Positions 3,406 to 64,000 of a stretch of 64,000 bases of DNA are shown here, one piece after another. Position 1 is the stretch's first letter; each line of letters opens with the position of its first letter. This stretch comes from a phage, in NCBI GenBank assembly GCA_017822615.1, contig GCA_017822615.1_4530.1, one strand, 5' to 3'. A program made the translations under genes and the position numbers. The notes beneath the pieces are model-generated. The model was given only the letters and a program-made list of their open reading frames with translations. It searched no databases and was not told the origin of the DNA.

Positions 3406-3414
3406 GGAGAAATA

Positions 3415-3741
3415 ATGCAGATTTATACAGATGATCGTAAATATGAGACAATTTTAGATGAAGATACTGGACGAATTACCGTTCTCCGTCACGGTGAAGA
3501 GTGGCGTGATGAAACGGGAGACAATTATATCTTGTCTCTGATTCATCTTATTGAACAAATGCGTGATGATTACGCTGAACTGCATTATGAAAATGAGGCT
3601 AATAAAGTAAAATTTGAAAATGAATTAGAAGAGAAAGAATCCGAAATGGTATATCTAAAAGAAGAGATCTCCCGTTTGGAGGAAGAGATTGATGCTCTTC
3701 AAGAAGAGATTTACGAACTCAACAACGAACTGAACGCTTAA
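3415..3741 (+). CDS. hypothetical acidic coiled-coil protein
   Basis: ORF track; RBS aaggag; heptad-like EEISRLEEEIDALQEEIYEL. Confidence 0.6.
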   Translation: MQIYTDDRKYETILDEDTGRITVLRHGEEWRDETGDNYILSLIHLIEQMRDDYAELHYENEANKVKFENELEEKESEMVYLKEEISRLEEEIDALQEEIYELNNELNA

Positions 3742-52173: not shown

Positions 52174-52196
52174 CGAATGAGAATAATTATCATTCG
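52174..52196. promoter_or_regulatory. 23-bp near-perfect palindrome, Fur-box-like operator
   Basis: cgaatgagaataattatcattcg; resembles the GATAATGATAATCATTATC-type AT-rich dyad. Confidence 0.4.
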
Positions 52197-52353: not shown

Positions 52354-52374
52354 ATATGAGAATGATTATTATTT
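52354..52374. promoter_or_regulatory. iteron-like site (ATGAGAATGATT motif)
   Basis: atatgagaatgattattattt shares the ATGAGAATGATT core with the iterons at 63829-63944. Confidence 0.35.
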
Positions 52375-54639: not shown

Positions 54640-54695
54640 GGGAAACATTCCCGCCCTACGTGATAAATAATAATGTAAGCGTGATCCGGTGTCAA
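54640..54695 (-). promoter_or_regulatory. early promoter + 5' GC-hairpin cassette
   Basis: Reverse strand TTGACA (54690-54695), 17 nt, TATTAT (54667-54672), TAGGGCGG, hairpin gggaa-aca-ttccc 54640-54652. Confidence 0.6.
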
Positions 54696-55007
54696 TAGGT
54701 GGGATTGTAAAGATTTGATAGTTTATCTCTTTGATGTTTTGTTGTTTGATAGGTGTTAGCTATCAATATATAGCGGGGTCTTCCGGTGATTATCTTCCCC
54801 TGCTCCCAGGTGCCGCCCGTTCAATAAGTATAACAAAAAACAGGACTATTGCAAGCCCTGTTTATTTATCTTAAAACCAGTTGCCAACCGTTTCTAATAG
54901 GTCGCTGACTACCAGGACAACATTGATCAGCACATGTTCAACCATGAAGGGAATAAGCGCCAGCGTTGCTACTACGATCCCCATTGTGATGATTACCTTT
55001 CTCATGG

Positions 55008-55292
55008 TTAGCGGCTTACGTAAGCTTTACCGTTTACGGTCATCGGTATGGCCTCAAGGTCTGGATCTTCCTTAAGGTCGCGTGCAAGCTCACCGCACCG
55101 GATACCCTCGAATCCGTAGTACTCTGTTGTGCCATCCTGGAAAGTTTTAGCGGCAAGGCATAGGCGATAATTAACACCGATCCGGTTCACTGCGTTGATA
55201 TCGGTTAACGTGATGGATTCAGGCAACTCATTAGCCAGTACAGGCGCGTTAATACCAACAACCAGGGCAACTACTGCGATCATCTTTTTCAT
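55008..55292 (-). CDS. secreted early protein (signal peptide)
   Basis: MKKMIAVVALVVGINAPVLA signal-peptide-like N-terminus. Confidence 0.6.
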   Translation of the reverse strand: MKKMIAVVALVVGINAPVLANELPESITLTDINAVNRIGVNYRLCLAAKTFQDGTTEYYGFEGIRCGELARDLKEDPDLEAIPMTVNGKAYVSR

Positions 55293-55322
55293 GCTTTCTA
55301 GCCTCTTCCTATTGCGTTTAAT

Positions 55323-55338
55323 GGGGCGTTACCGCCCC
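55323..55338 (-). promoter_or_regulatory. intercistronic GC hairpin (no promoter)
   Basis: ggggcg-ttac-cgcccc between the stop at 55348 and the next RBS. Confidence 0.5.
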
Positions 55339-55347
55339 GCTTATGGT

Positions 55348-55584
55348 TTATTGATTGATGTTATAATGAAAGTTATTTTCTTCAATAGCTTTTAAAATAA
55401 AAGCTGTGATCGCTTTCGTGTCTACTTGTTCGAACGTATCAGAATAGCACCAATAATGATCATCCCCTACTTTCGGCGGGTAAACCTGGACAAGGAGATC
55501 GCCACCTGGTTGATCTATAAGCTCAACATGCAAGCCGGATGATTCAGCGGTTTTAACGGCGTTTAATACTGTTGCAATACTCAT
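55348..55584 (-). CDS. hypothetical early protein
   Basis: ORF track. Confidence 0.6.
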   Translation of the reverse strand: MSIATVLNAVKTAESSGLHVELIDQPGGDLLVQVYPPKVGDDHYWCYSDTFEQVDTKAITAFILKAIEENNFHYNINQ

Positions 55585-55604
55585 AATCTTTTCCTTTCTG
55601 ATGT

Positions 55605-55620
55605 GGGGCGTTGCCGCCCC
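55605..55620 (-). promoter_or_regulatory. intercistronic GC hairpin (no promoter)
   Basis: ggggcg-ttgc-cgcccc, 8 nt after the upstream stop and about 20 nt before the next RBS. Confidence 0.5.
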
Positions 55621-55628
55621 TTTGTTGA

Positions 55629-55928
55629 TTAGATCGCTGTTTCCAGTAGTTCGGCTAACGTCTTACCGCCTGATAGTTGGTCTAACGTTTGCTCTTCTGG
55701 CAAGAAATTAGCTGATATTAAACCGACTTGATTCCCTTTGTGCCAGTTAGCCTGGCGGATGATTCCATCCTTTAAAGATTTTACCGCCATTGTGCAACCG
55801 TCGCCAAATGATTCATTTTTATGATCCATTACTTCATAAGCGCCCAGCTTGCTGCTGTTAGGCACCATTAACGCGAATACATCACCAACAACCAGTTTTT
55901 CTACGGTAACAATAGCGATAGTTTCCAT
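55629..55928 (-). CDS. hypothetical early protein
   Basis: ORF track. Confidence 0.6.
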   Translation of the reverse strand: METIAIVTVEKLVVGDVFALMVPNSSKLGAYEVMDHKNESFGDGCTMAVKSLKDGIIRQANWHKGNQVGLISANFLPEEQTLDQLSGGKTLAELLETAI

Positions 55929-55947
55929 TTTACTTTCCTCATTATCG

Positions 55948-56003
55948 GCGGCACCATTGCCGCCCTACGTGGTAAATATTAGCACACTGGCGATCTGTGT
56001 CAA
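55948..56003 (-). promoter_or_regulatory. early promoter + 5' GC-hairpin cassette
   Basis: Reverse strand TTGACA (55998-56003); hairpin gcggca-ccat-tgccgc 55948-55963; 35-nt segment identical to 61609-61642. Confidence 0.6.
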
Positions 56004-56009
56004 TACTTT

Positions 56010-56396
56010 TTATTCAATATAAATCAAATTATCTTCACCAATGTAAGCCGACACGTCCGGCATGAATTTAGCGGCATTTGTTAGGCGGTTCGCCGTGTTA
56101 GTGGTGTATATTTCAGGGCGATCCCAAAAGCCTACGCCGTGACTGTTACGGGTAAAATGTAAATCATTCCCGATCTGGTTGGCTGTTGCGCCGTCGCTCA
56201 TTGCCTCAGAGATAGCGGCAAGATTAGCATTAATAAAGGCTGTTACATCCTGGGCGATCCGTTGATCCGCGCTAGGAGAAAAATCATAATCGTCTAAGTT
56301 ATCAATAAAATTACCTTCATGATCCCTTGCTGATTCAGCAAAAATAAAGGCTTCTTTATAGCCGTTGATGATTTCGTTAATGATTTCTGTTTTCAT
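56010..56396 (-). CDS. hypothetical early protein
   Basis: ORF track. Confidence 0.6.
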   Translation of the reverse strand: MKTEIINEIINGYKEAFIFAESARDHEGNFIDNLDDYDFSPSADQRIAQDVTAFINANLAAISEAMSDGATANQIGNDLHFTRNSHGVGFWDRPEIYTTNTANRLTNAAKFMPDVSAYIGEDNLIYIE

Positions 56397-56608
56397 GCTG
56401 TACGCTCGACAATAATAATAGTTTGCGGGATCTCGTTTTCTACTACTAACAAGGCTTTTTTCTGTGTGATAGATATTTTAACACGTTGTAAAGTAGCGGT
56501 GAAATCTTTCATTTCATTATGCGCGGACTTCGTGCAATGCCAGATCTCAGGCTTACCAACTTGTAAGCCGCGTAAAAATTCCGTTTTGCCTGTTTTGTTC
56601 GTGATCAT
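56393..56608 (-). CDS. hypothetical early protein
   Basis: ATG at 56608 after aaggtga; track GTG start 56617. Confidence 0.55.
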   Translation of the reverse strand: MITNKTGKTEFLRGLQVGKPEIWHCTKSAHNEMKDFTATLQRVKISITQKKALLVVENEIPQTIIIVERTA

Positions 56609-56618
56609 TTGTTTCACC

Positions 56619-56723
56619 TTAACCGATACCGTGGGAAGATAGGATCATGTTAGCCATAGTTGCAACCACTCCAACCGATAACGCCAGGCCCACTATTACA
56701 ACCGTGAAAATTTTCTCTAACAT
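56619..56723 (-). CDS. small membrane peptide (34 aa)
   Basis: Reverse-strand ATG after gagggtag; hydrophobic MLEKIFTVVIVGLALSVGVVA; not in track. Confidence 0.4.
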   Translation of the reverse strand: MLEKIFTVVIVGLALSVGVVATMANMILSSHGIG

Positions 56724-56741
56724 GATTCTACCCTCATTAAT

Positions 56742-56803
56742 GGGCGTTGCACCATTGCCCCGCCCTACGAAATACATTCTATCAGATAACAAATTATCGT
56801 CAA
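56742..56803 (-). promoter_or_regulatory. early promoter + 5' GC-hairpin cassette
   Basis: Reverse strand TTGACG (56798-56803), 16 nt, TAGAAT (56776-56781), TAGGGCGG, hairpin region 56742-56765. Confidence 0.55.
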
Positions 56804-56946
56804 GATTTATTTTTTACTTCCCAAACGGAAAATTCACTGCCTATCGGGATCATTCTTTTAATCTTGTTTGCTGCTGCTACCAGATCCACGGCTTGCACTG
56901 TAATAATATAACCAATTGTCGGGGCTGTTGCGTTGAAAGTTTTCAT
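56800..56946 (-). CDS. small hypothetical protein (48 aa)
   Basis: Reverse-strand ATG after aaggataat; stop overlaps the next -35; not in track. Confidence 0.4.
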   Translation of the reverse strand: MKTFNATAPTIGYIITVQAVDLVAAANKIKRMIPIGSEFSVWEVKNKS

Positions 56947-56990
56947 TATATTATCCTTTAATACAGGCGGGATTAATCCCGCCTTATTAA

Positions 56991-57161
56991 TTACTCTTCA
57001 TCGTCGCCGTTATAGTATTCAATGCCGTTTTCATCGGTTACAGTGATGTTAACGCCACCGATAGCGACACGATCACGGGCAAACGTCATAGCTTCATTTA
57101 AATCTTCGGACCAAAAAATATTGTGACCTTTGCGCGATACATAAAACATAGTCGGGGTCAT
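56991..57161 (-). CDS. hypothetical early protein
   Basis: ATG at 57161 (MTPTMFYV...); track TTG start 57245 lies inside the promoter. Confidence 0.55.
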   Translation of the reverse strand: MTPTMFYVSRKGHNIFWSEDLNEAMTFARDRVAIGGVNITVTDENGIEYYNGDDEE

Positions 57162-57184
57162 GATTTGTTTCTCTTCTGTTTTGA

Positions 57185-57245
57185 GCGGTGGACCATTCCG
57201 CCGCCCTATGTGATAAACTTTACTACGTTGTTTGCCTACTGTCAA
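57185..57245 (-). promoter_or_regulatory. early promoter + 5' GC-hairpin cassette
   Basis: Reverse strand TTGACA (57240-57245), 17 nt, TAAAGT (57217-57222), TAGGGCGG, hairpin 57185-57204 with one mismatch. Confidence 0.6.
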
Positions 57246-57246
57246 A

Positions 57247-57531
57247 TTATTTTTTAATGTTTTGCCCTACAAAATTGATCACTTCCTTAAGCTGTTTCTC
57301 TGTCATGATCGTACCTGGTAATTCCTCTTTAATTTCTTCCGGTAAATAAATATTACCGCGCCAGGTTAACAAACAACCGTTTTGATCTTCGCAGATAGAA
57401 TAAGAGAAGATCCACTCATTATCATTTTCAAGCTCCCAAAAACACAAAAAGTCTTCTTTCCCTAAGTTTTCAACGGTTAAGCATAATCCGCGACGTGCTG
57501 CATAATTAGTTAGGCTTTTTGTGATTTTCAT
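57247..57531 (-). CDS. hypothetical early protein
   Basis: ORF track. Confidence 0.6.
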   Translation of the reverse strand: MKITKSLTNYAARRGLCLTVENLGKEDFLCFWELENDNEWIFSYSICEDQNGCLLTWRGNIYLPEEIKEELPGTIMTEKQLKEVINFVGQNIKK

Positions 57532-57552
57532 GATTTTTCTCTCTTCTTGTGA

Positions 57553-57607
57553 GCGGCATCATTGCCGCCCTACGCAATAACTATAACACAATATAAAACC
57601 GGATCAA
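57553..57607 (-). promoter_or_regulatory. early promoter + 5' GC-hairpin cassette
   Basis: Reverse strand TTGATC (57602-57607), 16 nt, TATAGT (57580-57585), hairpin gcggca-tcat-tgccgc 57553-57568. Confidence 0.6.
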
Positions 57608-57816
57608 CCTTTATTTTTCCACGGTGTCAGCTTGTTAATCATTGGTGATAAATAACGTTTACCAACGTAAAACAGTACGCCAACTGATGCAACGGCGGCG
57701 ATCTCATGTAAGGAGGAAGGCCGCGCGGTGTCATAATAGGTACCAATAATAGCAATAGCGGCGACGGCGGTGATGTCAATAATGATTTTTTCTTGTTTTG
57801 CTGTGATAGTGGTCAT
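57604..57816 (-). CDS. small membrane protein
   Basis: Hydrophobic ITAVAAIAIIGTYY and AAVASVGVLFYV. Confidence 0.55.
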   Translation of the reverse strand: MTTITAKQEKIIIDITAVAAIAIIGTYYDTARPSSLHEIAAVASVGVLFYVGKRYLSPMINKLTPWKNKG

Positions 57817-57838
57817 AATGTTTTCTCTTCTGTGTGGT

Positions 57839-57894
57839 CGGGAACTATTCCCGCCCTATGTGATACATCTTAGTAAATCTGGTTATAATGTCAA
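57839..57894 (-). promoter_or_regulatory. early promoter + 5' GC-hairpin cassette
   Basis: Reverse strand TTGACA (57889-57894), 16 nt, TAAGAT (57867-57872), hairpin cgggaa-cta-ttcccg 57839-57853. Confidence 0.65.
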
Positions 57895-57900
57895 CCATTT

Positions 57901-58086
57901 TTAAAGATATTTTATACTGATAACATTTTCAGGTTTTACCTTATTATGCTGTGCATCTATATAGATTAAACCATCCTCAGAAAAGCCCAGGATCACGCCC
58001 TGCGCAATAAAACCGTATTGGTCACGGTAACGCACGGCTATTTTTAATGTTGCATTGTAGGCTGTTTTAAGCTCATTTAAAGTCAT
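57901..58086 (-). CDS. hypothetical early protein
   Basis: ORF track; RBS gaggataaa on reverse strand. Confidence 0.55.
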   Translation of the reverse strand: MTLNELKTAYNATLKIAVRYRDQYGFIAQGVILGFSEDGLIYIDAQHNKVKPENVISIKYL

Positions 58087-58105
58087 TTGTGTTTATCCTC
58101 TAGAT

Positions 58106-58136
58106 ATAAAAAGAAAGGGCGCTTGATGCGCCCTTG
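58106..58136 (-). terminator. rho-independent terminator (aagggcgc family)
   Basis: aagggcgc-ttgat-gcgccctt; reverse strand followed by tttcttttta. Confidence 0.65.
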
Positions 58137-58141
58137 TTATG

Positions 58142-58287
58142 TTAATCCTCTAAATCCATCCAATTATATTTATCACTCTTCCCGCGCTTTGTTTTATTGC
58201 GTTTATCACCTTTGCGGATCACTTCTTCATTCCATGCCTTGCGGATCTTGGAAGATTGAATTTTTTCTGCGCGATTAGATGTATTCA
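58142..58287 (-). CDS. small basic early protein
   Basis: ATG at 58287 (MNTSNRAEK...) after aagaggaaac; track start 58327 lies inside the hairpin element. Confidence 0.5.
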
Positions 58288-58308
58288 TTTTGTTTCCTCT
58301 TTGTATGA

Positions 58309-58361
58309 GCGGCATCATTGCCGCCATGTGGTTAATCTAAACTATTTTGTAAAATTGTCAA
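58309..58361 (-). promoter_or_regulatory. early promoter + 5' GC-hairpin cassette
   Basis: Reverse strand TTGACA (58356-58361), 16 nt, TAGATT (58334-58339), hairpin gcggca-tcat-tgccgc 58309-58324. Confidence 0.6.
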
Positions 58362-58367
58362 GGTTTA

Positions 58368-58721
58368 TCATTCATAAGAGCAAGCAAGGATCACGCCTGC
58401 AATATAAAGCCAATAATTTTCCCTTTCTCGTTGGATTTTATCATCGTTGCTATTCTCTTTAATGTATCCCCAGGATGTTAACAAGCGATCAATTTCCCAA
58501 TATTCGAAAGCGATATTGATATCTGATGGCAAACCTTGTAACCATGATGCAAGTGCTTTAACAATACTATAATTAAAACGTGATTGGTTATCAGGGTACC
58601 AGTACTCGGAATTAAAACGGCGCATCAATTCCGCGATCTTCTCTTTTTCGGTTGTAATACCGTAATCATTAAAATCGATAGCGGCAAGTATGTACTCTTT
58701 AATTGCATTTTGTGCTTTCAT
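58368..58721 (-). CDS. hypothetical early protein
   Basis: ORF track. Confidence 0.6.
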   Translation of the reverse strand: MKAQNAIKEYILAAIDFNDYGITTEKEKIAELMRRFNSEYWYPDNQSRFNYSIVKALASWLQGLPSDINIAFEYWEIDRLLTSWGYIKENSNDDKIQRERENYWLYIAGVILACSYE

Positions 58722-58740
58722 GGTCTTTCTCTCTTTTTGA

Positions 58741-58797
58741 GCGGGAACTATTCCCGCCCTACGTGTAACAGTTTACTAAAAATTAAATCGGTGTCAA
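58741..58797 (-). promoter_or_regulatory. early promoter + 5' GC-hairpin cassette
   Basis: Reverse strand TTGACA (58792-58797), 16 nt, TAAACT (58770-58775), hairpin gcgggaa-cta-ttcccgc 58741-58757. Confidence 0.65.
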
Positions 58798-58800
58798 GCT

Positions 58801-59022
58801 TTATTTTGTTACTACCATTTGGTACCCTGTTTCAATGTTAGTAAATACTGTTATTCCGTCCTGGCGTTCACTCATTAGCATACAAGGCGCTAACATCCTT
58901 TCTACTGCCTTGCACTCATTGTAAACGGCGGTTATGTCTCCTGCGGCCTTGTCTTCTGTGGTGAATGTATCGTTTATGTAAACCTGACCAGCGACAACGG
59001 CGACAATAGCGAAAGTGATCAT
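58801..59022 (-). CDS. hypothetical early protein (MITFA N-terminus)
   Basis: ORF track; first 15 nt of the CDS identical to 59097..59264. Confidence 0.55.
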   Translation of the reverse strand: MITFAIVAVVAGQVYINDTFTTEDKAAGDITAVYNECKAVERMLAPCMLMSERQDGITVFTNIETGYQMVVTK

Positions 59023-59055
59023 GATGTTTCCTTGTTAGTAGTGGTTTCTCTTCTC

Positions 59056-59093
59056 TATAGCGCCCATTATAAGGCGCTATAACGAAAAGTCAA
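59056..59093 (-). promoter_or_regulatory. promoter with palindrome spanning the -10
   Basis: Reverse strand TTGACT (59088-59093), 16 nt, TATAAT (59066-59071) inside inverted repeat tatagcgcc...ggcgctata 59056-59081. Confidence 0.5.
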
Positions 59094-59096
59094 CGA

Positions 59097-59264
59097 TTAT
59101 TTTTTAAGGCTTAAAGTACCTAACTTGTCAGCATGACGCAGACCAGGGAAGATCCATTTTCCTGATTCATCTTTTACAGGGGCTTTAAGCGTAGCGCCCA
59201 GGTTGGCGGCGTTAACTTTACGGGCAACGTTGCGAGCGGCTTCACGGGTAGCGAAAGTGATCAT
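59097..59264 (-). CDS. small early protein (55 aa, MITFA N-terminus)
   Basis: Reverse-strand ATG with the same initiation region as 58801..59022; not in track. Confidence 0.45.
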   Translation of the reverse strand: MITFATREAARNVARKVNAANLGATLKAPVKDESGKWIFPGLRHADKLGTLSLKK

Positions 59265-59288
59265 GATGTTTTCCTCTTCTCTTTGTTA

Positions 59289-59350
59289 GGCGGTGGACCA
59301 TTCCGCCGCCTTGATGTAATACAGTTTACTTTATTTTATTAAGATTGCAA
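59289..59350 (-). promoter_or_regulatory. early promoter + 5' GC-hairpin cassette
   Basis: Reverse strand TTGCAA (59345-59350), 16 nt, TAAACT (59323-59328), hairpin ggcggtgga-cca-ttccgccgcc 59289-59310. Confidence 0.55.
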
Positions 59351-59356
59351 GCGGTT

Positions 59357-59572
59357 TTATGAAATAATTGTCAAAGTAAAATCATAAGACTGATTTAATT
59401 TATATTGTACTTTATTGCCGTAGTAGTCACCTTTACGTAAAGATCCTCGAATACCTATTACATCCTTAACGTCTTTTAAATTTTTCACGCCTGTAATGTC
59501 TTTATTGAAATACTCGTCATCTGAAAATAAAACTTGACTTGCATTTTTTAACAGTGTGCGGATATTAGCCAT
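59357..59572 (-). CDS. hypothetical early protein
   Basis: ATG at 59572 (MANIRTLL...); track start 59620 lies inside the hairpin element. Confidence 0.5.
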   Translation of the reverse strand: MANIRTLLKNASQVLFSDDEYFNKDITGVKNLKDVKDVIGIRGSLRKGDYYGNKVQYKLNQSYDFTLTIIS

Positions 59573-59595
59573 TTTGATAATCCCTCTTACTATGA

Positions 59596-59651
59596 GCGGC
59601 ACTATTGCCGCCCTATGCATTACATTTTACTGATTTTAGTTATCTTGTCAA
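59596..59651 (-). promoter_or_regulatory. early promoter + 5' GC-hairpin cassette
   Basis: Reverse strand TTGACA (59646-59651), 16 nt, TAAAAT (59624-59629), hairpin gcggca-ctat-tgccgc 59596-59611. Confidence 0.65.
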
Positions 59652-59658
59652 TATTATT

Positions 59659-59886
59659 TTAGTTTAATTCATCCAGGCATAACAGGCGATCAACGTTGAG
59701 ATCGGTTAGGCTGATGGTCGGCACCTGGTAGGATTCGATGTACTCGACGCTTGCATATTCTCCAAAATTAGCAATAGCCCACTTATTCAAGATCTCACAT
59801 ACATCATTAATCTTTTTGTTTGTTACAACTGCTACAACCTGGGAATAGCCAACGGTGCCGGATACGCGAACAATATTGATAGCCAT
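59659..59886 (-). CDS. hypothetical early protein
   Basis: ORF track. Confidence 0.6.
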   Translation of the reverse strand: MAINIVRVSGTVGYSQVVAVVTNKKINDVCEILNKWAIANFGEYASVEYIESYQVPTISLTDLNVDRLLCLDELN

Positions 59887-59909
59887 AATCTTTAATCTCT
59901 CTGTTGTGA

Positions 59910-59968
59910 GCGGGAAACCATTTCCCGCCCTATGTGATACATCTTACACTAATTTTAAACGTTGTCAA
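59910..59968 (-). promoter_or_regulatory. early promoter + 5' GC-hairpin cassette
   Basis: Reverse strand TTGACA (59963-59968), 16 nt, TAAGAT (59941-59946), hairpin gcgggaaa-cca-tttcccgc 59910-59928. Confidence 0.65.
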
Positions 59969-59977
59969 CTGTTTTTA

Positions 59978-60217
59978 TTACATTCCAACCATCGCGGCAC
60001 GGATTGCAGTTTTACTATACTTGAAACCGTCTGGAGTTTTATCTTGTCCAGTTTGTTCCAGGAATAACATCATATCACGGGCAGCATCATTACGATTAGT
60101 ATTAGCGGCGATAAATTCTTTCGCCAACCGATATAATGATTCGTCGTTATTAATCCAAAGGCTTACATTCCAATGAGTTTTATTTTTGTGACCTAAGAAC
60201 ATTTTTGATTTAGCCAT
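59978..60217 (-). CDS. hypothetical early protein
   Basis: ORF track. Confidence 0.6.
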   Translation of the reverse strand: MAKSKMFLGHKNKTHWNVSLWINNDESLYRLAKEFIAANTNRNDAARDMMLFLEQTGQDKTPDGFKYSKTAIRAAMVGM

Positions 60218-60241
60218 GATGTTAATCTCTTTTTCAGTGAG

Positions 60242-60300
60242 GCGGGAAGTGTTCCCGCTCTCTATGTAATACAGTTTACTCTTTTTATTCGTGCTGTCAA
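60242..60300 (-). promoter_or_regulatory. early promoter + 5' GC-hairpin cassette
   Basis: Reverse strand TTGACA (60295-60300), 16 nt, TAAACT (60273-60278), hairpin gcgggaa-gtg-ttcccgc 60242-60258. Confidence 0.65.
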
Positions 60301-60306
60301 TGCTTT

Positions 60307-60672
60307 TTATAAATCTTTTTTACGTTTAACATCGCTTGCATGACTGTATACAGTGATCCCATTGTCACGGCAAAAACGGGAAAGATACGCGCCGCGTGAA
60401 AACTCTTTACCTTCCATATTAATAACCTTGCTAAATTCTTCCAGGGCGACGGTATCAAAATGATCACCATAACCATATTGAAACGGAACGTTAACCACCT
60501 CGATCAGTTTACCGCCGATCTCAACGTCAACCATTAAAGAAAAATATGTGTTACCGTAGGACTGTTGAAACCAACGACGGGCGCTAATATGCACCGCCTC
60601 AATGCTGGATAATTCAATTTTAGCCGTGTCAGCCAGGGTAGCATAAGAGGAAACATTGATATTAATAGCCAT
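60307..60672 (-). CDS. hypothetical early protein
   Basis: ORF track. Confidence 0.6.
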   Translation of the reverse strand: MAININVSSYATLADTAKIELSSIEAVHISARRWFQQSYGNTYFSLMVDVEIGGKLIEVVNVPFQYGYGDHFDTVALEEFSKVINMEGKEFSRGAYLSRFCRDNGITVYSHASDVKRKKDL

Positions 60673-60698
60673 GATATTACTCTCTTTTTTTGGTTAGT

Positions 60699-60750
60699 GG
60701 GAAGTATTCCCGATAAAAGTTATTATGCTTATACTATCACTCATTGTCAA
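60699..60750 (-). promoter_or_regulatory. early promoter + 5' GC-hairpin cassette (short hairpin)
   Basis: Reverse strand TTGACA (60745-60750); hairpin gggaa-gta-ttccc 60699-60711. Confidence 0.55.
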
Positions 60751-60769
60751 TAGTATAAGATTAAAACTT

Positions 60770-60949
60770 TTAACGATAATCGTTATAGGCTTTATTGACC
60801 TGGCGAATGTAACATTCGAAAGCAAGATCAATGTATTCGTATTCACGCACATAATCACCATAGGTCACTACATACATTTTTAAAGTTTCCTCATAAGCCA
60901 GGAGGATCGAATCTAAACCTATAATCTCAGTTTTTGCAATGATAGTCAT
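60770..60949 (-). CDS. small early protein (59 aa)
   Basis: Reverse-strand ATG; fills the gap between cassettes; not in track. Confidence 0.45.
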   Translation of the reverse strand: MTIIAKTEIIGLDSILLAYEETLKMYVVTYGDYVREYEYIDLAFECYIRQVNKAYNDYR

Positions 60950-60970
60950 GATGTTAACCTTTTATTGTTG

Positions 60971-61026
60971 GCGGCACCATTGCCGCCCTACGTGATAAAC
61001 TACACCAGAATTTTAAACAGTGTCAA
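60971..61026 (-). promoter_or_regulatory. early promoter + 5' GC-hairpin cassette
   Basis: Reverse strand TTGACA (61021-61026); hairpin gcggca-ccat-tgccgc 60971-60986, then TAGGGCGG. Confidence 0.6.
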
Positions 61027-61031
61027 CCGTT

Positions 61032-61394
61032 TTATTCGTAAATTTTACCGCTTTCGGCCCATACCATAACGCGGCGCATACTATCCCAAGTGTTCTGATC
61101 CAGGTTTAAGCCGTGCAACTCTTCGGTACTTCCCAGACCAGGTACCGCCTTGTTGTAAGTAGCATATAAGCGCCCTTGATACTCATACGCCAGGATGAGA
61201 TCCGTTTGAATCATCTTTTTAAGCATAGCATTAAGCATCATGTTAGCGGCATGTTGATCACGTTTTAGCGGTAACATGTCAATAAGGGCGCGATAAGCTG
61301 AAACATGAATATCAACCGTTTCACGTGGTAAATTTTTCATATCATCGCGGAAGGATACCAGGTTTAACATGATAGTATTGATTTGCTTGCTCAT
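61032..61394 (-). CDS. hypothetical early protein
   Basis: ORF track. Confidence 0.6.
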   Translation of the reverse strand: MSKQINTIMLNLVSFRDDMKNLPRETVDIHVSAYRALIDMLPLKRDQHAANMMLNAMLKKMIQTDLILAYEYQGRLYATYNKAVPGLGSTEELHGLNLDQNTWDSMRRVMVWAESGKIYE

Positions 61395-61416
61395 TGTGTT
61401 ACCCTTTTTTGTTTTG

Positions 61417-61476
61417 GCGGGGAAGTATTCCGCCGCCCTATGTGATACATCTTATCAGATTAAAAAACGTTGTCAA
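61417..61476 (-). promoter_or_regulatory. early promoter + 5' GC-hairpin cassette
   Basis: Reverse strand TTGACA (61471-61476), 16 nt, TAAGAT (61449-61454); imperfect hairpin 61417-61436. Confidence 0.6.
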
Positions 61477-61484
61477 GAATATTT

Positions 61485-61580
61485 TTAGAAAATAATAGCC
61501 GCTACTACAATCCAAAATGGAACGGCTAGAATGATAGCGTTAATCGTTCCAACCGTCAAGCTATTTTCTTTATTAATCAT
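61485..61580 (-). CDS. small membrane peptide (31 aa)
   Basis: Reverse-strand ATG; hydrophobic GTINAIILAVPFWIVVAAIIF; not in track. Confidence 0.35.
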   Translation of the reverse strand: MINKENSLTVGTINAIILAVPFWIVVAAIIF

Positions 61581-61609
61581 TGTAAGCCTCTTGCATAATT
61601 TCACTATGA

Positions 61610-61666
61610 GCGGCACCATTGCCGCCCTACGTGGTAAATATTATGCCAGTGGCGGCGATATGTCAA
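61610..61666 (-). promoter_or_regulatory. early promoter + 5' GC-hairpin cassette
   Basis: Reverse strand TTGACA (61661-61666), 17 nt, TAATAT (61638-61643), hairpin gcggca-ccat-tgccgc 61610-61625. Confidence 0.65.
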
Positions 61667-62220
61667 AGACTATTTTCAAAGTTTTCTAGTGCGATCCTTT
61701 TTTCTTCCTCTGTCGGCTGATAATCAGGAAAAGCATCAACACACAACAACGGCGGGATCTCTTCGTACTCTTCCTCTTCCGTTGTCTCCTCGTCTTCCTC
61801 CTGGGCTATGGCTGCAATTTTGGCTAATTTTCTTTCAGCTTGAATCAATTTACCATCAAGTACGTTTTTTGCCATGTTGTAAGCGGTCCAGGTGATGCGC
61901 TTACTTTCCAGGGCCTGATCGAGCGCCGCTATCTTGCTGGGGTATTCATCCAGGACACGAAAAGCCGGATCAACTTTGTACAAAGGATTATCTTTCGCGC
62001 CGTCGCTCGCATCTTCCGCACTGGATAAATCAGCGTTACCATTTGCCAGCCAGCCAGGGCGCACATAACGCGCTTTTACGTTGCCGTTACTACGTGCTAA
62101 TCTGTTACCTATTTGCTCACCGCTATATCCCGTGGATTCATCGATAAGATGATCGGGAATGATGCGCGGATCATCTGCTTCATGTTTTACCCAAGACTGG
62201 ATCACATATTCGCGGCCCAT
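61663..62220 (-). CDS. hypothetical early protein with acidic C-terminus
   Basis: ATG at 62220 (MGREYV...); track GTG start 62229 overlaps the upstream gene. Confidence 0.6.
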   Translation of the reverse strand: MGREYVIQSWVKHEADDPRIIPDHLIDESTGYSGEQIGNRLARSNGNVKARYVRPGWLANGNADLSSAEDASDGAKDNPLYKVDPAFRVLDEYPSKIAALDQALESKRITWTAYNMAKNVLDGKLIQAERKLAKIAAIAQEEDEETTEEEEYEEIPPLLCVDAFPDYQPTEEEKRIALENFENSL

Positions 62221-62221
62221 A

Positions 62222-62479
62222 TTAACCACCTTTTTTCAACAATTGGCATACTTTAAAAAGACTTGCTGAATCCTTGCAAGGGTAGAAAGATGTACGATAA
62301 TCACGTACGCCAACCTTGCGGATCTCGATGTTCTCGCATGTTGTTTGATCAAAGATATTTATTTCATCACGCCCCCTTATATAAACATAGTGGGGATGTA
62401 TTAACGCATATTTTGCTAATCTGTAAAAAGCGTTATCTTTGAACGCGATCACGTGACCTTTTAATTTGATGTAAAACAT
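62222..62479 (-). CDS. hypothetical early protein
   Basis: ORF track. Confidence 0.6.
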   Translation of the reverse strand: MFYIKLKGHVIAFKDNAFYRLAKYALIHPHYVYIRGRDEINIFDQTTCENIEIRKVGVRDYRTSFYPCKDSASLFKVCQLLKKGG

Positions 62480-62497
62480 TCTACCACCTTACAAATA

Positions 62498-62552
62498 GCG
62501 GGAACTATTCCCGCTTTATGTAACATATTAACAAATTATTCGTTAATGTCAA
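62498..62552 (-). promoter_or_regulatory. early promoter + 5' GC-hairpin cassette
   Basis: Reverse strand TTGACA (62547-62552), 16 nt, TAATAT (62525-62530), hairpin gcgggaa-cta-ttcccgc 62498-62514. Confidence 0.65.
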
Positions 62553-62555
62553 GCC

Positions 62556-62828
62556 TTAAAGCAAAAACGCTACATCTTGCGCTTTTAGTGTAGTATCAAC
62601 CATTTTCGGGCTTTTATAATCAACAAAGCGCGCGGTTTTTTCAATAGCGAAACCGAGATAATCTTGCTTGTTGAAATTACATTCTTTCTTAAATGTTTCC
62701 CGTGCAATAGCGATCGCTGCGTCCAGGGATAAACGCCCGTCAATATTGATATTAGCGAAAGATCCGCCACCGCTCATAGGTTTACCAGTTGTGCCAGCTA
62801 CGATCATTGTTGCGCTATATGATGCCAT
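62556..62828 (-). CDS. hypothetical early protein
   Basis: ORF track. Confidence 0.6.
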   Translation of the reverse strand: MASYSATMIVAGTTGKPMSGGGSFANINIDGRLSLDAAIAIARETFKKECNFNKQDYLGFAIEKTARFVDYKSPKMVDTTLKAQDVAFLL

Positions 62829-62853
62829 GATGATAATCTCTCTTCTGTTACGA

Positions 62854-62912
62854 GCGGGAAACCACTTCCCGCCCTATGTGATACATCTTATCAGGTTGTT
62901 GTTTGTTGTCAA
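62854..62912 (-). promoter_or_regulatory. early promoter + 5' GC-hairpin cassette
   Basis: Reverse strand TTGACA (62907-62912), 16 nt, TAAGAT (62885-62890), hairpin gcgggaa-accac-ttcccgc 62854-62872. Confidence 0.65.
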
Positions 62913-62918
62913 TAGTTT

Positions 62919-63117
62919 TTATTCTATTCCTGCGATTTGATTAACGCGCTTGCATTTTGTAGCGTGCTGGTCTTCTGTAATGACTCCCATTTCTAACAGG
63001 GAATCAATGAAAGATAAAACCGTTTCATGATCATCCTGGGGGTGACTGAACTCAGTAAAACCGTTTACCACTACGTTGATTTGTCCAGCTTTCGCCACAA
63101 TGTGCAATGTTGCCATG
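62919..63117 (-). CDS. hypothetical early protein
   Basis: ATG at 63117 (MATLHIV...); track TTG start 63194 lies inside the promoter -35. Confidence 0.55.
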
Positions 63118-63137
63118 ATCTTAACTCCAAATAGTGA

Positions 63138-63194
63138 GCGGCACCATTGCCGCCCTACAAGATGAATACTACGCCGCCGCCTGGTTAACGTCAA
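63138..63194 (-). promoter_or_regulatory. early promoter + 5' GC-hairpin cassette
   Basis: Reverse strand TTGACG (63189-63194), 17 nt, TAGTAT (63166-63171), hairpin gcggca-ccat-tgccgc 63138-63153. Confidence 0.6.
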
Positions 63195-63302
63195 CCATTT
63201 TTCAATCTTTTTTATTTTCTTTTTGCTTGCTATATATAAAGAAAAGGGCTATTATCTTTCTACCGCGCCAACCAGGGCGCACAACAAAGAAAGGGCGATA
63301 TC

Positions 63303-63569
63303 ATGACAAATACTACATTACACCTTATGCACTCATTGGGCTGGCAAGGCGGCACGGTGCACCAGGTAGCAAGCGCAACGGGCTTAAAGGTTGAAACCGT
63401 TCTCAACCTGGGCGATCATAAGGTGGAAGAGATAGATCATTTTGATACGTTCGCAAATGGTTATCTATGGGCTTGCAGTGGCGGCGGGGAAAGCAAGATA
63501 CCACCAGGGGCGCGGGGCGATATGTATTTTTGGTTAGGTGTCCTATCCTGGCAAGAAAACAAAAAATAA
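63303..63569 (+). CDS. hypothetical protein
   Basis: ORF track; RBS aagggcg; only plus-strand gene in this segment. Confidence 0.5.
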   Translation: MTNTTLHLMHSLGWQGGTVHQVASATGLKVETVLNLGDHKVEEIDHFDTFANGYLWACSGGGESKIPPGARGDMYFWLGVLSWQENKK

Positions 63570-63571
63570 TC

Positions 63572-63600
63572 TTGACAAGCCCAGGGATCGGGCTTATACT
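63572..63600 (+). promoter_or_regulatory. sigma70-type promoter with palindromic spacer
   Basis: TTGACA 63572-63577, 17-nt spacer agcccagggatcgggct (dyad agccc/gggct), TATACT 63595-63600. Confidence 0.5.
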
Positions 63601-63828
63601 GTTTTACATACAGAAGAGGAAGCGCCACCCCACGGCGTAAAGGCGGGGCTAACATACCAGGGGGCACTGGTTGGAAGGTTGATCGCCGGTAGGCTGGGTG
63701 CTATATATTTGTAAAGAAATGCAAAGATAAAATAATCGCTTGCTTTCCTGGCTGGATCTGTTATTCTTATTACATGGCGAGGGGACACGGGAGCGCGAGA
63801 CAAACACCGCCCCTGCGCGTCATTCTCT

Positions 63829-63944
63829 AAATGAGAATGATTGTCATTTACCTTATTAAATAAGAATCAATCTCATTTATAAACTTAAATGCGAATCATT
63901 ATCATTTGCATTTCCATATGAGAACTCTTCTCATTTTCACCTGC
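63829..63944. repeat. four tandem 29-bp iterons, each an imperfect dyad (ATGAGAA...TTCTCAT)
   Basis: Repeat units start at 63829, 63858, 63887, 63916 with consensus aAtgaGAAtcatTcTCATTT; followed by AT-rich tract 63945-64000. Confidence 0.6.
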
Positions 63945-64000
63945 ATAAAAATTTTTGTAAACTTTAAATTTTGCTTTTGTACTTTCATTTTTGTAAAAGC

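What the first reader, a model, noticed from the sequence alone, without database searches (positions are those of the whole stretch)
63572..63800. Promoter with palindromic spacer followed by a GC-rich untranslated stretch (possible sRNA)
A consensus TTGACA-17-TATACT promoter whose spacer is the dyad agcccagggatcgggct is followed by about 200 nt with no credible ORF but several GC-rich self-complementary segments, ending just before the iteron array. This could be an operator-controlled ncRNA or a primer or leader transcript for the putative origin.
Basis: inference. Interest (0 to 1): 0.4.

Follow-up and report, generated by a model that had tools for sequence, protein, structure and literature searches.

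The report
Unannotated pseudoknotted small RNA gene in phage
The promoter is real and drives a previously undescribed, strongly conserved small non-coding RNA (a pseudoknot, a hairpin and an invariant tail) that is shared by hundreds of large lytic phages of enterobacteria and Aeromonas; what it does is unknown.

Summary
The window is a Phapecoctavirus (phAPEC8/ESCO13-like lytic myovirus).

**Observation:** confirmed. TTGACA-17-TATACT lies at 63572-63600 with the dyad in its spacer. No credible ORF follows.

**What follows the promoter:** an about 75-nt structured RNA core at 63619-63692 on the + strand. It consists of:
- an H-type pseudoknot (CGCC/GGCG and CCCC/GGGG);
- a bulged hairpin with a variable loop;
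- an invariant tail, AAGGUNRAUCGCCGGUAG.

**Evidence that it is a real RNA:**
- It is conserved in Stephanstirmvirinae, Vequintavirinae and Aeromonas Plateaulakevirus.
- 10 of 15 base pairs show compensatory changes; 0 of 500 shuffles reach this.
- Loop indels that are not multiples of three rule out coding.
- There is no Rfam match, and most records annotate nothing there.
- In the Aeromonas phages it is a stand-alone unit with its own promoter and terminator and no repeat array nearby. This argues against an origin primer or leader.

**The spacer dyad:** it appears only where a + strand ORF ends just upstream. Its arm sequences differ between lineages, often with GNRA loops. It is best read as that ORF's terminator or 3' hairpin, not an operator.

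**Function:** unknown. My best guess is an early, trans-acting RNA that binds a conserved partner. No expression data exist.

The parts
63303..63569 (+). Upstream 88-aa ORF. It is the only + strand gene among - strand early genes, and its stop lies 2 nt before the -35 of P1.
   Evidence: ORF list. Annotated as hypothetical in relatives. Matches PHROG 19316 of unknown function. No Pfam match. AlphaFold2 pLDDT 93, five helices, no PDB fold match.
63572..63600 (+). Promoter P1: -35 TTGACA at 63572-63577, 17-nt spacer, -10 TATACT at 63595-63600. The start site is inferred at about 63606-63608.
   Evidence: The hexamers and their spacing are conserved in all lineages while the spacer sequence changes.
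63577..63595 (+). Dyad AAGCCC-AGGGATC-GGGCTT inside the P1 spacer. Inferred to be the terminator or 3'-end hairpin of the upstream ORF's mRNA.
   Evidence: Flagged as terminator-like. Fold energies are -8.7 to -15.9 kcal/mol in six lineages. Arm sequences differ between lineages, with GAAA or GCAA loops. The dyad is absent where no + ORF precedes.
63606..63622 (+). Purine-rich 5' leader (ACAGAAGAGGAAG) of the RNA.
   Evidence: Alignments. It is purine-rich in most lineages but not invariant.
63623..63648 (+). H-type pseudoknot. S1 is CGCC (63623-63626) paired with GGCG (63634-63637). S2 is the loop CCCC (63628-63631) paired with GGGG (63645-63648). The A-rich crossing loop UAAAGGC lies at 63638-63644.
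   Evidence: S1 was predicted by RNAalifold. S2 covaries: CCCC:GGGG, CCAA:UUGG, CCAG:CUGG, CCAU:AUGG. S1 covaries: CGCC:GGCG and GGAC:GUCU.
63649..63673 (+). Linker CUAAC and bulged hairpin P3. Outer pairs are C63653:G63673 and A63654:U63672, with U63655 bulged. The inner stem is ACCAG (63656-63660) paired with CUGGU (63667-63671). The loop is variable.
   Evidence: All 26 distinct P3 versions fold to the same topology. Six of seven pairs show compensatory changes.
63675..63692 (+). Invariant, apparently single-stranded 3' tail AAGGUUGAUCGCCGGUAG.
   Evidence: AUCGCCGG is invariant in the 24 seed sequences. The tail is kept in all lineages, Aeromonas included. The covariance-model hit spans 63619-63692 at 89 bits, E 8e-22.
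63708..63727 (+). Direct repeat TTTGTAAAGA-AA-TGCAAAGA between the RNA core and P2. Its role is unknown; it could be an A/U-rich part of the transcript or an upstream element of P2.
   Evidence: Conserved in the enterobacterial lineages and absent in Aeromonas.
63740..63767 (+). Second promoter-like site P2: -35 TTGCTT at 63740-63745, -10 TATTCT at 63762-63767.
   Evidence: Read from the sequence. Equivalent TTGCAA/TTGATC ... TATATT/TATTAT sites are conserved in relatives. It is weaker than P1 and was not listed by the scan.
63774..63823 (+). Second conserved G+C-rich block (GAGACAAACACC ... CUGCGCG UCAUUC). It is the possible 3' hairpin of the P1 transcript and/or a short P2 transcript.
   Evidence: Conserved in sequence. 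RNAalifold finds no consensus structure. Only a 6-bp closing helix, AUGGCG:CGUCAU, varies as G:C, G:U or A:U, by my own reading of alignment A4.
63829..63935 (.).
   Evidence: 6 matches in the window against 0.11 expected. Similar palindromes occur in the terminal-repeat untranslated region of T5-like phages.

Best explanation
This is a stand-alone small-RNA gene of the phage.

A near-consensus sigma-70 promoter (63572-63600) is read by host RNA polymerase, presumably early in infection. It produces a non-coding + strand transcript. The first ~90 nt of that transcript (about 63606-63692) fold into three elements: a compact H-type pseudoknot, a bulged hairpin with a variable loop, and an invariant single-stranded tail (AAGGUNRAUCGCCGGUAG). 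In this phage the transcript probably runs on through an A/U-rich stretch to the G+C-rich block at 63774-63823, giving about 220 nt in total. An internal promoter (P2) may also make a short 3' RNA.

The dyad in the promoter spacer is not part of the RNA's control. It is the terminator or 3' hairpin of the upstream 88-aa gene, nested inside the next promoter.

The RNA combines covarying helices with invariant junctions and an invariant tail, it is conserved across hosts from Escherichia to Aeromonas, and it has no downstream gene. I therefore infer that it acts in trans, through its invariant unpaired nucleotides, by binding a conserved protein or RNA of the host or phage as a decoy, sponge or regulator.

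Shown: the promoter match and its conservation, non-coding status, structure, strand, family breadth, and independence from the repeat array.
Inferred: transcription itself, both RNA ends, early timing, the terminator role of the dyad, and the trans-acting mode. The partner is unknown.
For: Promoter: 11/12 consensus. Hexamers and spacing are kept in all lineages while the spacer changes.

Conservation: about 70% DNA identity of a gene-free stretch between subfamilies. Exact core motifs occur in IMG/VR and metagenome contigs of about 115-153 kb. Covariance model R1 gives 47-94 bits for true members against 21 bits or less for background.

Structure: RNAalifold helices. On 43 distinct sequences, 89% of cells are paired and 10 of 15 pairs have compensatory changes; 0 of 500 shuffles reach this, and slid controls reach at most 47% paired. 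The pseudoknot helix was not part of the model that made the alignment, yet it covaries. All 26 hairpin variants fold alike.

Strand: the promoter orientation; changes that give G:U on + but A-C on - (4MG CUCC, L045, L016/L031); GNRA loops (GAAA, GCAA) on +; a + strand terminator in Aeromonas phages. The + strand folds better than shuffles (z -2.3) and the - strand does not (z -0.8).

Non-coding: 1-6-nt loop indels among close relatives.

Stand-alone gene: in Plateaulakevirus the order is promoter TTGCTT-17-TATAAT, core, A/U-rich spacer, G+C hairpin terminator, in a 310-bp gap between - strand genes.

Under selection: an ORF matching PHROG 'HNH endonuclease' families (E 8e-79) is inserted exactly at the 3' end of the core in Raoultella phage Ro1. 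It is followed by a second promoter and a divergent copy of the RNA with compensated pseudoknot pairs.

Spacer dyad.
Against: - There are no transcript data of any kind. The start site, 3' end and timing are all inferred.
- No canonical intrinsic terminator follows the core in this window. The 63774-63823 block has no consensus structure.
- The U-tracts after the spacer hairpin are weak in some lineages (UPEC06, CR3), so 'terminator' may really mean a 3' stabiliser.
- No partner or target was found. The tail's complement has no better-than-chance match in the 64-kb window, and E. coli genomes hold no similar sequence.
- Most sequences are closely related, so cell counts of covariation overstate the number of independent events. 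Helices 1 and 3 were aligned with a model that contains them.
- In the enterobacterial phages the RNA always lies next to a repeat-rich gap, so a local, cis role is not excluded.
Confidence: 0.6

Rival explanations
1. Origin transcript. P1 and P2 fire into the palindrome and A/T-rich repeat region, and the structured RNA primes or activates replication there. The analogies are ColE1 RNA II and the R-loop at T4 ori(uvsY)/ori(34) (recalled from memory).
For: In Stephanstirmvirinae and Vequintavirinae the RNA always lies at the left edge of an ~800-bp gene-free gap. That gap holds palindromes, direct repeats about 80 bp apart and A/T-rich DNA. The transcript is G-rich: 32 G against 22 C in 89 nt. 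No terminator separates it from the array in this window.
Against: In Plateaulakevirus the RNA has its own terminator and no repeats nearby. The repeat types next to it differ between lineages while the RNA is constant. A conserved pseudoknot and an invariant tail are not features of known primer transcripts. GC skew in the window follows gene orientation and does not mark this site. The rV5 authors likewise found only skew changes that track transcription (PMC3606486).
Confidence: 0.12
2. A catalytic or ligand-binding RNA: a new self-cleaving ribozyme with a pistol-like topology, or a free-standing aptamer that soaks up a small molecule. The invariant junction nucleotides would form the active site or binding pocket.
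For: The signature is helices that covary around invariant junctions and an A-rich crossing strand. The hairpin loop pairs with the strand between the left arms of two further helices (P2 GGCGG:UCGCC, and P3). This is the arrangement described for pistol ribozymes, which are also phage-associated (PMC4604425). An invariant GU lies in the 3' junction (AAGGU).
Against: There is no Rfam hit to pistol or any ribozyme or riboswitch, even at E up to 10 on a 236-nt stretch. The junction between P3 and P2 is 11 nt here, against a strictly conserved 2 nt in pistol. P2 cannot form in the CCAA-type and Aeromonas members. No regulated gene lies downstream.
Confidence: 0.1
3. A cis-acting element that modifies the transcribing RNA polymerase, as the HK022 put RNAs do (recalled from memory), so that transcription reads through downstream hairpins and bound proteins.
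For: The structured core begins only about 16 nt after the inferred start of a strong promoter in every lineage. Hairpins and palindromes follow it in this phage.
Against: In Aeromonas phages it is followed about 45 nt later by a good terminator and then by the 3' end of a convergent gene, so read-through has no obvious purpose. Put RNAs are two stem-loops without a pseudoknot. Nothing was tested.
Confidence: 0.08
4. An operator-controlled promoter. The spacer dyad would be the binding site of a dimeric regulator, for example the upstream 88-aa protein.
For: The dyad sits between -35 and -10, a classic repressor position. The upstream ORF is syntenic with it and has a helical fold.
Against: The arms differ completely between lineages, while the N-terminal half of the protein is conserved. 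The loops are GNRA tetraloops in several lineages, and G-U pairs appear in the stem (phiTE), which only matter in RNA. A like dyad follows the unrelated inserted ORF in phage Ro1. The protein has no significant DNA-binding fold match.
Confidence: 0.07
5. A protein-coding gene: the 69-aa - strand ORF (63594-63803) annotated in phage Ro121lw, or the 58-aa + strand ORF.
For: One GenBank record annotates the - strand ORF as a CDS. ORFs of that length exist.
Against: Relatives at 85-99% identity differ by 1-, 2- and 4-6-nt indels in the hairpin loop inside both ORFs. The start codons are TTG or GTG. Most records annotate nothing here. The pattern of change is base-pair covariation, not codon-wise.
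Confidence: 0.02

Closest known systems
Phage-encoded trans-acting small RNAs of enterobacteria, such as prophage DicF and IpeX (recalled from memory)
   Same: A short non-coding transcript from its own sigma-70 promoter. In the Aeromonas members there is an A/U-rich stretch and then a terminator hairpin. A conserved unpaired segment could serve as a seed.
   Different: There is no sequence relation and no Rfam family. It is carried by strictly lytic ~115-150-kb phages. The core is a pseudoknot with invariant junctions, unlike typical seed-plus-terminator sRNAs. No target is known.
Pistol self-cleaving ribozyme (Rfam RF02679; PMC4604425)
   Same: A hairpin whose loop pairs with the strand joining the left arms of two further helices. 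An A-rich strand follows the first hairpin. The third hairpin is variable, a GU lies in the 3' junction, and the context is a phage.
   Different: The P3-P2 junction is 11 nt, not 2. P2 is not conserved across the family. The pseudoknot is 4 bp. There is no covariance-model hit. Cleavage has not been tested.
ToxI / pseudo-ToxI antitoxic RNA of type III toxin-antitoxin systems (PMC3475682)
   Same: A pseudoknot-forming phage RNA could neutralise a host protein. Phage phiTE carries both elements.
   Different: The pseudo-ToxI locus of phiTE is at 106.7 kb, between genes 202 and 203, not here at 39.5 kb. The RNA here is single-copy, not a tandem 36-nt repeat. The only sequence likeness is a 9-of-11 match, AGGUGAUUUGC against AGGUGAAUCGC, by my own comparison from memory.
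Origin transcripts: ColE1 RNA II and the T4 ori(uvsY)/ori(34) R-loop RNAs (recalled from memory)
   Same: A promoter firing toward an A/T-rich, repeat-bearing gene-free region. The transcript is G-rich.
   Different: The RNA occurs without any such region in Plateaulakevirus. Its conserved tertiary-type structure has no counterpart in those primers.
HK022 put RNAs (recalled from memory)
   Same: A structured RNA immediately downstream of a strong early promoter.
   Different: Put RNAs are two stem-loops with no pseudoknot. Here a terminator directly follows in some members.

Membership tests
Sigma-70 promoter | -35 and -10 hexamers close to TTGACA and TATAAT, 16-18 bp apart | tested here: met
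   TTGACA-17-TATACT, 11 of 12. Equivalent hexamers lie at the same spacing in all lineages.
Sigma-70 promoter | Transcription starts about 7 nt downstream in vivo or in vitro | not testable with these tools
   No transcript data are available.
Any described RNA family (Rfam 15) | Covariance-model match at or near the gathering score | tested here: not met
   No hit at E up to 1 in 60000-64000. The only hit at E up to 10 in 63595-63830 is a 12-bit chance match to Bp1_684, whose gathering score is 44.
tRNA / tmRNA | Cloverleaf detected by ARAGORN | tested here: not met
   None in the window or in four related loci. This includes the locus where record OY978796 annotates tRNA-Ile and tRNA-Met.
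Pistol ribozyme | P1 loop pairs with the junction between the left arms of P2 and P3 | tested here: met
   The loop CCCC pairs with GGGG, which lies between GGCG (P2 5' arm) and P3. This helix covaries.
Pistol ribozyme | P2 helix conserved; 2-nt junction (GU) between P3 and P2 of strictly fixed length | tested here: not met
   The junction is 11 nt (UGGAAGGUUGA). P2 cannot form in the CCAA-type and Aeromonas members. The criterion comes from PMC4604425.
Pistol ribozyme | Mg2+-dependent site-specific self-cleavage | not testable with these tools
   This needs an in vitro transcription and cleavage assay.
Type III antitoxin RNA (ToxI-like) | Tandem direct repeats of about 34-36 nt next to, or mimicking those next to, a toxin gene | tested here: not met
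   There is a single copy in the window. The known pseudo-ToxI locus of phiTE is elsewhere.
Intrinsic terminator (for the spacer dyad) | G+C-rich hairpin directly followed by a U-run, at the end of a transcription unit | tested here: inconclusive
   The hairpin lies just past the stop of the 88-aa ORF (its first arm starts 8 nt after the stop codon) and is followed by UAUACUGUUUU. It was flagged by the scan. Hairpins of -8.7 to -15.9 kcal/mol occur in six lineages, but the U-run is poor in UPEC06 and CR3.
Origin primer or activator transcript | Constant association with the replication origin | tested here: not met
   The RNA occurs without repeats or an A/T-rich gap in Plateaulakevirus. The origin itself is not mapped in any of these phages.
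Protein-coding gene | Reading frame kept in relatives | tested here: not met
   Indels that are not multiples of three occur among close relatives.

The most novel reading that the evidence does not exclude
The RNA is a new functional class. One option is a self-cleaving ribozyme with a pistol-like fold. The other is a pseudoknotted decoy that captures a conserved host factor or defence protein early in infection. In either case it would be shared by three groups of large lytic phages, many of them used in phage therapy.
Probability: 0.15. Interest if true: 0.85.

Novelty: new variant of a known kind. Interest (0 to 1): 0.6.

Why it matters
Phage small RNAs are few, and almost all known ones come from temperate phages.

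This one is a structured RNA with good comparative support. It is present in more than 300 sequenced lytic phages of Escherichia, Klebsiella, Salmonella, Cronobacter, Pectobacterium, Erwinia, Serratia and Aeromonas. It is absent from Rfam, and in most GenBank records nothing is annotated there; in some the region is called a hypothetical protein.

Its invariant unpaired nucleotides across hosts point to a conserved partner, so it is a direct handle on an unknown early host-takeover or anti-defence step.

In practical terms:
- it gives annotators a model to remove false ORFs;
- it gives experimenters a 75-nt element with clear compensatory-mutation tests.

Tried and rejected
- **Plasmid iteron origin.** Rejected: there is no plasmid match, and the window is a lytic Phapecoctavirus.
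- **tRNA genes on the - strand**, as annotated in OY978796. ARAGORN finds none.
- **Pseudo-ToxI of phiTE.** It lies at a different locus.
- **Host-derived RNA or mimic.** No similar sequence in 5,426 E. coli genomes. The only hit in 185,579 species genomes is a 4-kb MAG contig whose promoter-and-RNA stretch is almost identical to the window's, so it is evidently a phage contig.
- **Targets inside the window** for the invariant tail, or for the GAGACAAACACC block. Matches are no better than chance.
- **A loose pattern scan of IMG/VR**. It returned mostly G+C-rich chance matches, and the covariance model separated them cleanly.
- **A conserved structure for the second block, 63774-63823.** RNAalifold found none.
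- **Function of the 88-aa ORF.** No Pfam match, no PDB sequence match and no fold match.
- **Gene neighbours shared** by the Aeromonas and enterobacterial loci. None recognised.
- **Literature.** No paper holds the core sequences, and no transcriptome of these phages was found. The rV5 genome paper only draws a 'non-coding' box.
- **Similarity of the tail to the 3' end of 16S rRNA, SRP RNA and CsrA sites.** Considered by eye only and judged superficial.
Full report
**Where the window comes from.** The 801 bases around the finding match 147 phage records. The best matches, at 99.9% identity, are Escherichia phages of the genus Phapecoctavirus (subfamily Stephanstirmvirinae; ESCO13 and phAPEC8 relatives). 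These are strictly lytic myoviruses of about 150 kb. No plasmid matches.

The finding lies at the left edge of a gene-free gap of about 800 bp, from window 63570 to about 64378, which runs past the end of the window. To its left is a single + strand ORF of 88 aa (63303-63569). That ORF is surrounded by small - strand early genes, each with its own sigma-70-type promoter. To its right, beyond the window, - strand genes resume; the first has a NADAR domain.

- TTGACA (63572-63577), a 17-nt spacer and TATACT (63595-63600) give 11 of 12 consensus positions.
- The spacer AGCCCAGGGATCGGGCT is a dyad, AAGCCC/GGGCTT including the flanking bases.
- At 71% G+C it is the most G+C-rich spacer among the 40 strong promoter-like sites in the window.
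- The only ORFs downstream are short and overlapping, with GTG or TTG starts.

**The untranslated stretch is conserved far beyond its genus.** A sensitive DNA search with 63560-64000 finds 313 phage records. Window 63603-63877 is about 70% identical in Vequintavirinae (phiTE, CR3, GAP31, 4MG, KB57, SSE121, PVP-SE1 and others). Most of those records annotate nothing there.

Exact-pattern scans with the most conserved words recovered further copies:
- from IMG/VR and metagenome contigs of about 115-153 kb;
- a more divergent group that includes Erwinia phage pEp_SNUABM_01;
- Aeromonas phages of the genus Plateaulakevirus, namely 2L372D, 2L372X, 4L372XY and 4L372D.

Host genomes do not carry it. 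There is no similar sequence in 5,426 complete E. coli genomes. Among 185,579 species genomes the only hit is a 4-kb MAG contig whose promoter-and-RNA stretch is almost identical to the window's.

**It is not coding.** Phapecoctavirus and Justusliebigvirus relatives are 85-99% identical here. Even so, the hairpin loop at 63661-63666 differs in length by 1, 2 or more nucleotides: GGGGCA, GGGCA, GGGGGCA, GGGGGGCA and GGCACUA. More distant relatives differ by 4-6 nt. These indels fall inside both the 58-aa + strand ORF and the 69-aa - strand ORF that one GenBank record annotates.

**It is a structured RNA.** RNAalifold on 29 sequences predicts two elements. One is a hairpin, CGCC (63623-63626) paired with GGCG (63634-63637). 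The other is a bulged hairpin around 63653-63673. One pair in the latter switches between A:U (17 sequences) and G:C (12 sequences).

The divergent members add the decisive evidence.
- The loop of the first hairpin (CCCC, 63628-63631) and a segment seven nucleotides downstream of that hairpin (GGGG, 63645-63648) change together. The observed combinations are CCCC:GGGG, CCAA:UUGG, CCAG:CUGG and CCAU:AUGG.
- In the Aeromonas phages the first hairpin itself changes from CGCC:GGCG to GGAC:GUCU.
- This defines an H-type pseudoknot with an A-rich crossing strand (UAAAGGC, CUAAAC or UUAAAU).
- The second hairpin exists in 26 distinct versions. All fold to the same shape: 2-4 outer pairs, a one-base bulge or purine-purine mismatch, 3-5 inner pairs and a 3-8-nt loop.

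I built a covariance model from 24 seed sequences using only the two nested helices.
- It finds one copy in the window, 63619-63692, at 89 bits and E 8e-22.
- It scores true members at 47-94 bits and background at 21 bits or less.
- On its alignment of 43 distinct sequences, with the pseudoknot added by hand, 89% of cells are paired.
- 10 of 15 pairs show compensatory changes.
- No shuffle out of 500 reaches the observed values.
- Sliding the partners by one to three columns drops pairing to 19-47%.

Two caveats apply. Many sequences are close relatives, so the number of independent events is smaller than the cell counts suggest. Helices 1 and 3 were aligned with a model that contains them. 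The pseudoknot helix was not in the model.

After the hairpin comes the tail AAGGU-N-R-AUCGCCGGUAG (63675-63692). It is essentially invariant in every lineage, Aeromonas included, and has no constant pairing partner.

**The + strand is the one that matters.**
- The promoter faces that way in every lineage.
- Several single changes give G:U on the + strand but A-C on the - strand: CUCC in phage 4MG, G:U in L045, and CGCU in L016 and L031.
- The hairpin loops GAAA and GCAA are GNRA tetraloops only on the + strand.
- The Aeromonas copies end in a + strand terminator.
- The + strand folds better than shuffled sequence (z -2.3). The - strand does not (z -0.8).

**The spacer dyad.** Across lineages the -35 and -10 hexamers stay, while the spacer keeps only its ability to form a G+C-rich hairpin. 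The sequences differ:
- AAGCCC-N7-GGGCTT;
- GCCCGGC-GAAA-GCTGGGC, which includes a G-T pair;
- GGCCCC-GCCA-GGGGCC;
- CCAGGC-GCAA-GCCTGG;
- GCCCC-N7-GGGGC.

Fold energies are -8.7 to -15.9 kcal/mol.

The hairpin is present wherever a + strand ORF stops just upstream. This includes the second promoter that follows the inserted ORF in Raoultella phage Ro1. It is weak or absent where no such ORF precedes, as in pEp_SNUABM_01 and the Aeromonas phages.

GNRA loops and G-U pairs are properties of RNA, not of a protein-binding DNA site. I therefore read the dyad as the terminator or 3' hairpin of the upstream gene's mRNA, nested in the next promoter. The scan also flags it as terminator-like. This remains an inference, because the U-run after it is poor in some lineages.

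The upstream protein gave no functional clue. Its model is confident (pLDDT 93, five helices), but it has no Pfam, PDB-sequence or fold match.

**Relation to the repeat array.** In the enterobacterial phages, five features follow the RNA in order:
1. a conserved direct repeat, TTTGTAAAGA-N2-TGYAAAGA (63708-63727);
2. a second promoter-like site (63740-63767);
3. a second conserved G+C-rich block (63774-63823);
4. four 19-bp palindromes exactly 29 bp apart (63830-63935);
5. A/T-rich direct repeats.

The second block is conserved in sequence, but RNAalifold finds no consensus structure. By my reading, only a 6-bp closing helix (AUGGCG:CGUCAU) varies in an RNA-like way (G:C, G:U, A:U). It may be the 3' hairpin of the P1 transcript, or a short RNA of its own.

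The RNA core does not depend on any of this. In Plateaulakevirus it sits in a 310-bp gap between - strand genes. The order there is promoter TTGCTT-17-TATAAT, about 18 nt of leader, the pseudoknot, a hairpin with a GCAA loop, the invariant tail, about 45 nt of A/U-rich sequence and a G+C hairpin terminator. There are no repeats. In the L093, L113, L152 and L164 group the neighbouring repeats are of a different type. This is the main argument against a primer or leader role for an origin.

**Signs of selection and of mobile-element targeting.** In Raoultella phage Ro1 (L016) a 197-aa ORF is inserted directly after the core. It matches PHROG families named HNH endonuclease (E 8e-79) and has no Pfam match. 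A second P1-like promoter follows it, and then a divergent copy of the RNA (55 bits) with the compensated CCAA:UUGG pseudoknot. In L158 another ORF, with a weak HNH-endonuclease PHROG match (E 2e-6), interrupts the second block. Free-standing homing endonucleases usually sit next to conserved, functionally constrained targets. That statement is established knowledge, not something tested here.

**Comparison with known systems.** No Rfam 15 family matches, even with permissive settings on a 236-nt stretch. ARAGORN finds no tRNA, despite a tRNA annotation in one record. The pseudo-ToxI RNA of phiTE is a different locus.

The closest known architecture is the pistol ribozyme. There, the loop of P1 pairs with the junction between the left arms of P2 and P3 (PMC4604425). 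Here the same topology can be drawn for the canonical members, with P2 as GGCGG:UCGCC. However:
- the P3-P2 junction is 11 nt rather than a strictly conserved 2 nt;
- P2 cannot form in the divergent members;
- the Rfam model does not hit.

It is therefore not a member of that family, and catalysis is untested. The literature search found neither the sequence nor a transcriptome of these phages. The rV5 genome paper only marks a 'non-coding' box.

**Verdict.** What is there is an unannotated family of pseudoknotted small RNAs with a conserved strong promoter.
- That it is a real, + strand, non-coding structured RNA gene: about 0.85.
- That the spacer dyad is the upstream gene's terminator or 3' hairpin: about 0.6.
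- That the RNA acts in trans by binding a conserved partner: about 0.4.
- The origin-primer, ribozyme/aptamer and put-like readings: about 0.1 each.

Everything about expression is inferred.

Noticed in passing
window 63830-63935, also 52176-52194 and 52355-52373: There are four 19-bp palindromes of the type AATGAGAAT-N-ATTCTCATT exactly 29 bp apart, plus two more copies 11.5 kb to the left. That is 6 matches against 0.11 expected. Very similar palindromes, each preceded by a G+C hairpin and ATTCTC, occur in the untranslated 'Repeat Region 3' of the left terminal repeat of T5-like phages, next to DnaA boxes. The core TGAGAATNATTCTCA differs from the 7-1-7 Fur-box TGATAATNATTATCA at two symmetric positions; that comparison is from memory and untested.
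   Followed up: partly
window 54651-63157, - strand: TAGGGCGG occurs 14 times, all on the - strand within the early-gene cluster, against 0.47 expected. Each of the copies I inspected lies a few bases after a sigma-70-like -10 and begins a short hairpin in the 5' leader of a small gene. This looks like a shared 5'-UTR element of the early genes.
   Followed up: partly
window 63774-63823: A second conserved G+C-rich block (GAGACAAACACC ... CUGCGCGUCAUUC) has its own promoter-like site at 63740-63767. It is conserved across subfamilies but has no consensus secondary structure. In contig L158 an ORF is inserted inside it.
   Followed up: partly
window 63303-63569: The lone + strand 88-aa ORF is conserved upstream of the RNA in the enterobacterial lineages. 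It gives a confident all-helical model (pLDDT 93) with no match in the PDB, Pfam or any named PHROG.
   Followed up: yes
L016 (Raoultella phage Ro1), reverse strand about 2700-3560 as printed: An ORF of the HNH-endonuclease PHROG family is inserted between a canonical copy and a divergent second copy of the RNA. Each copy has its own promoter. This looks like a homing event that carried a variant allele with it.
   Followed up: partly
L003 1616-1769 (record OY978796.1): The record annotates tRNA-Ile and tRNA-Met on the - strand over the homologous region. ARAGORN finds no tRNA there. It is probably an annotation artefact.
   Followed up: yes
window 63708-63727 and 63950-64000; L001 4740-4960: TTTGTAAA(G) and AACTTTAAAT words recur through the A/T-rich right part of the gap. 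They look like direct repeats of a possible origin or packaging region. They were not analysed.
   Followed up: no
L001 5179-5721 and 6270-7598 (just right of the window): The first genes after the gap encode a NADAR-domain protein (E 3e-35) and a protein with CapR homology domains. In a Klebsiella relative a nicotinamide phosphoribosyl transferase gene lies nearby.
   Followed up: no
records MG065689.1 and MG065650.1; L041 (JAEZZU010000352.1): Records named 'Campylobacter phage A110a/B15' encode the 88-aa protein at 94-97% amino-acid identity to the window's, and A110a also matches the RNA region at 84% DNA identity. A contig of a 'Proteobacteria bacterium' MAG matches the window almost exactly over the promoter-and-RNA stretch. 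The host labels or the binning are probably wrong.
   Followed up: no
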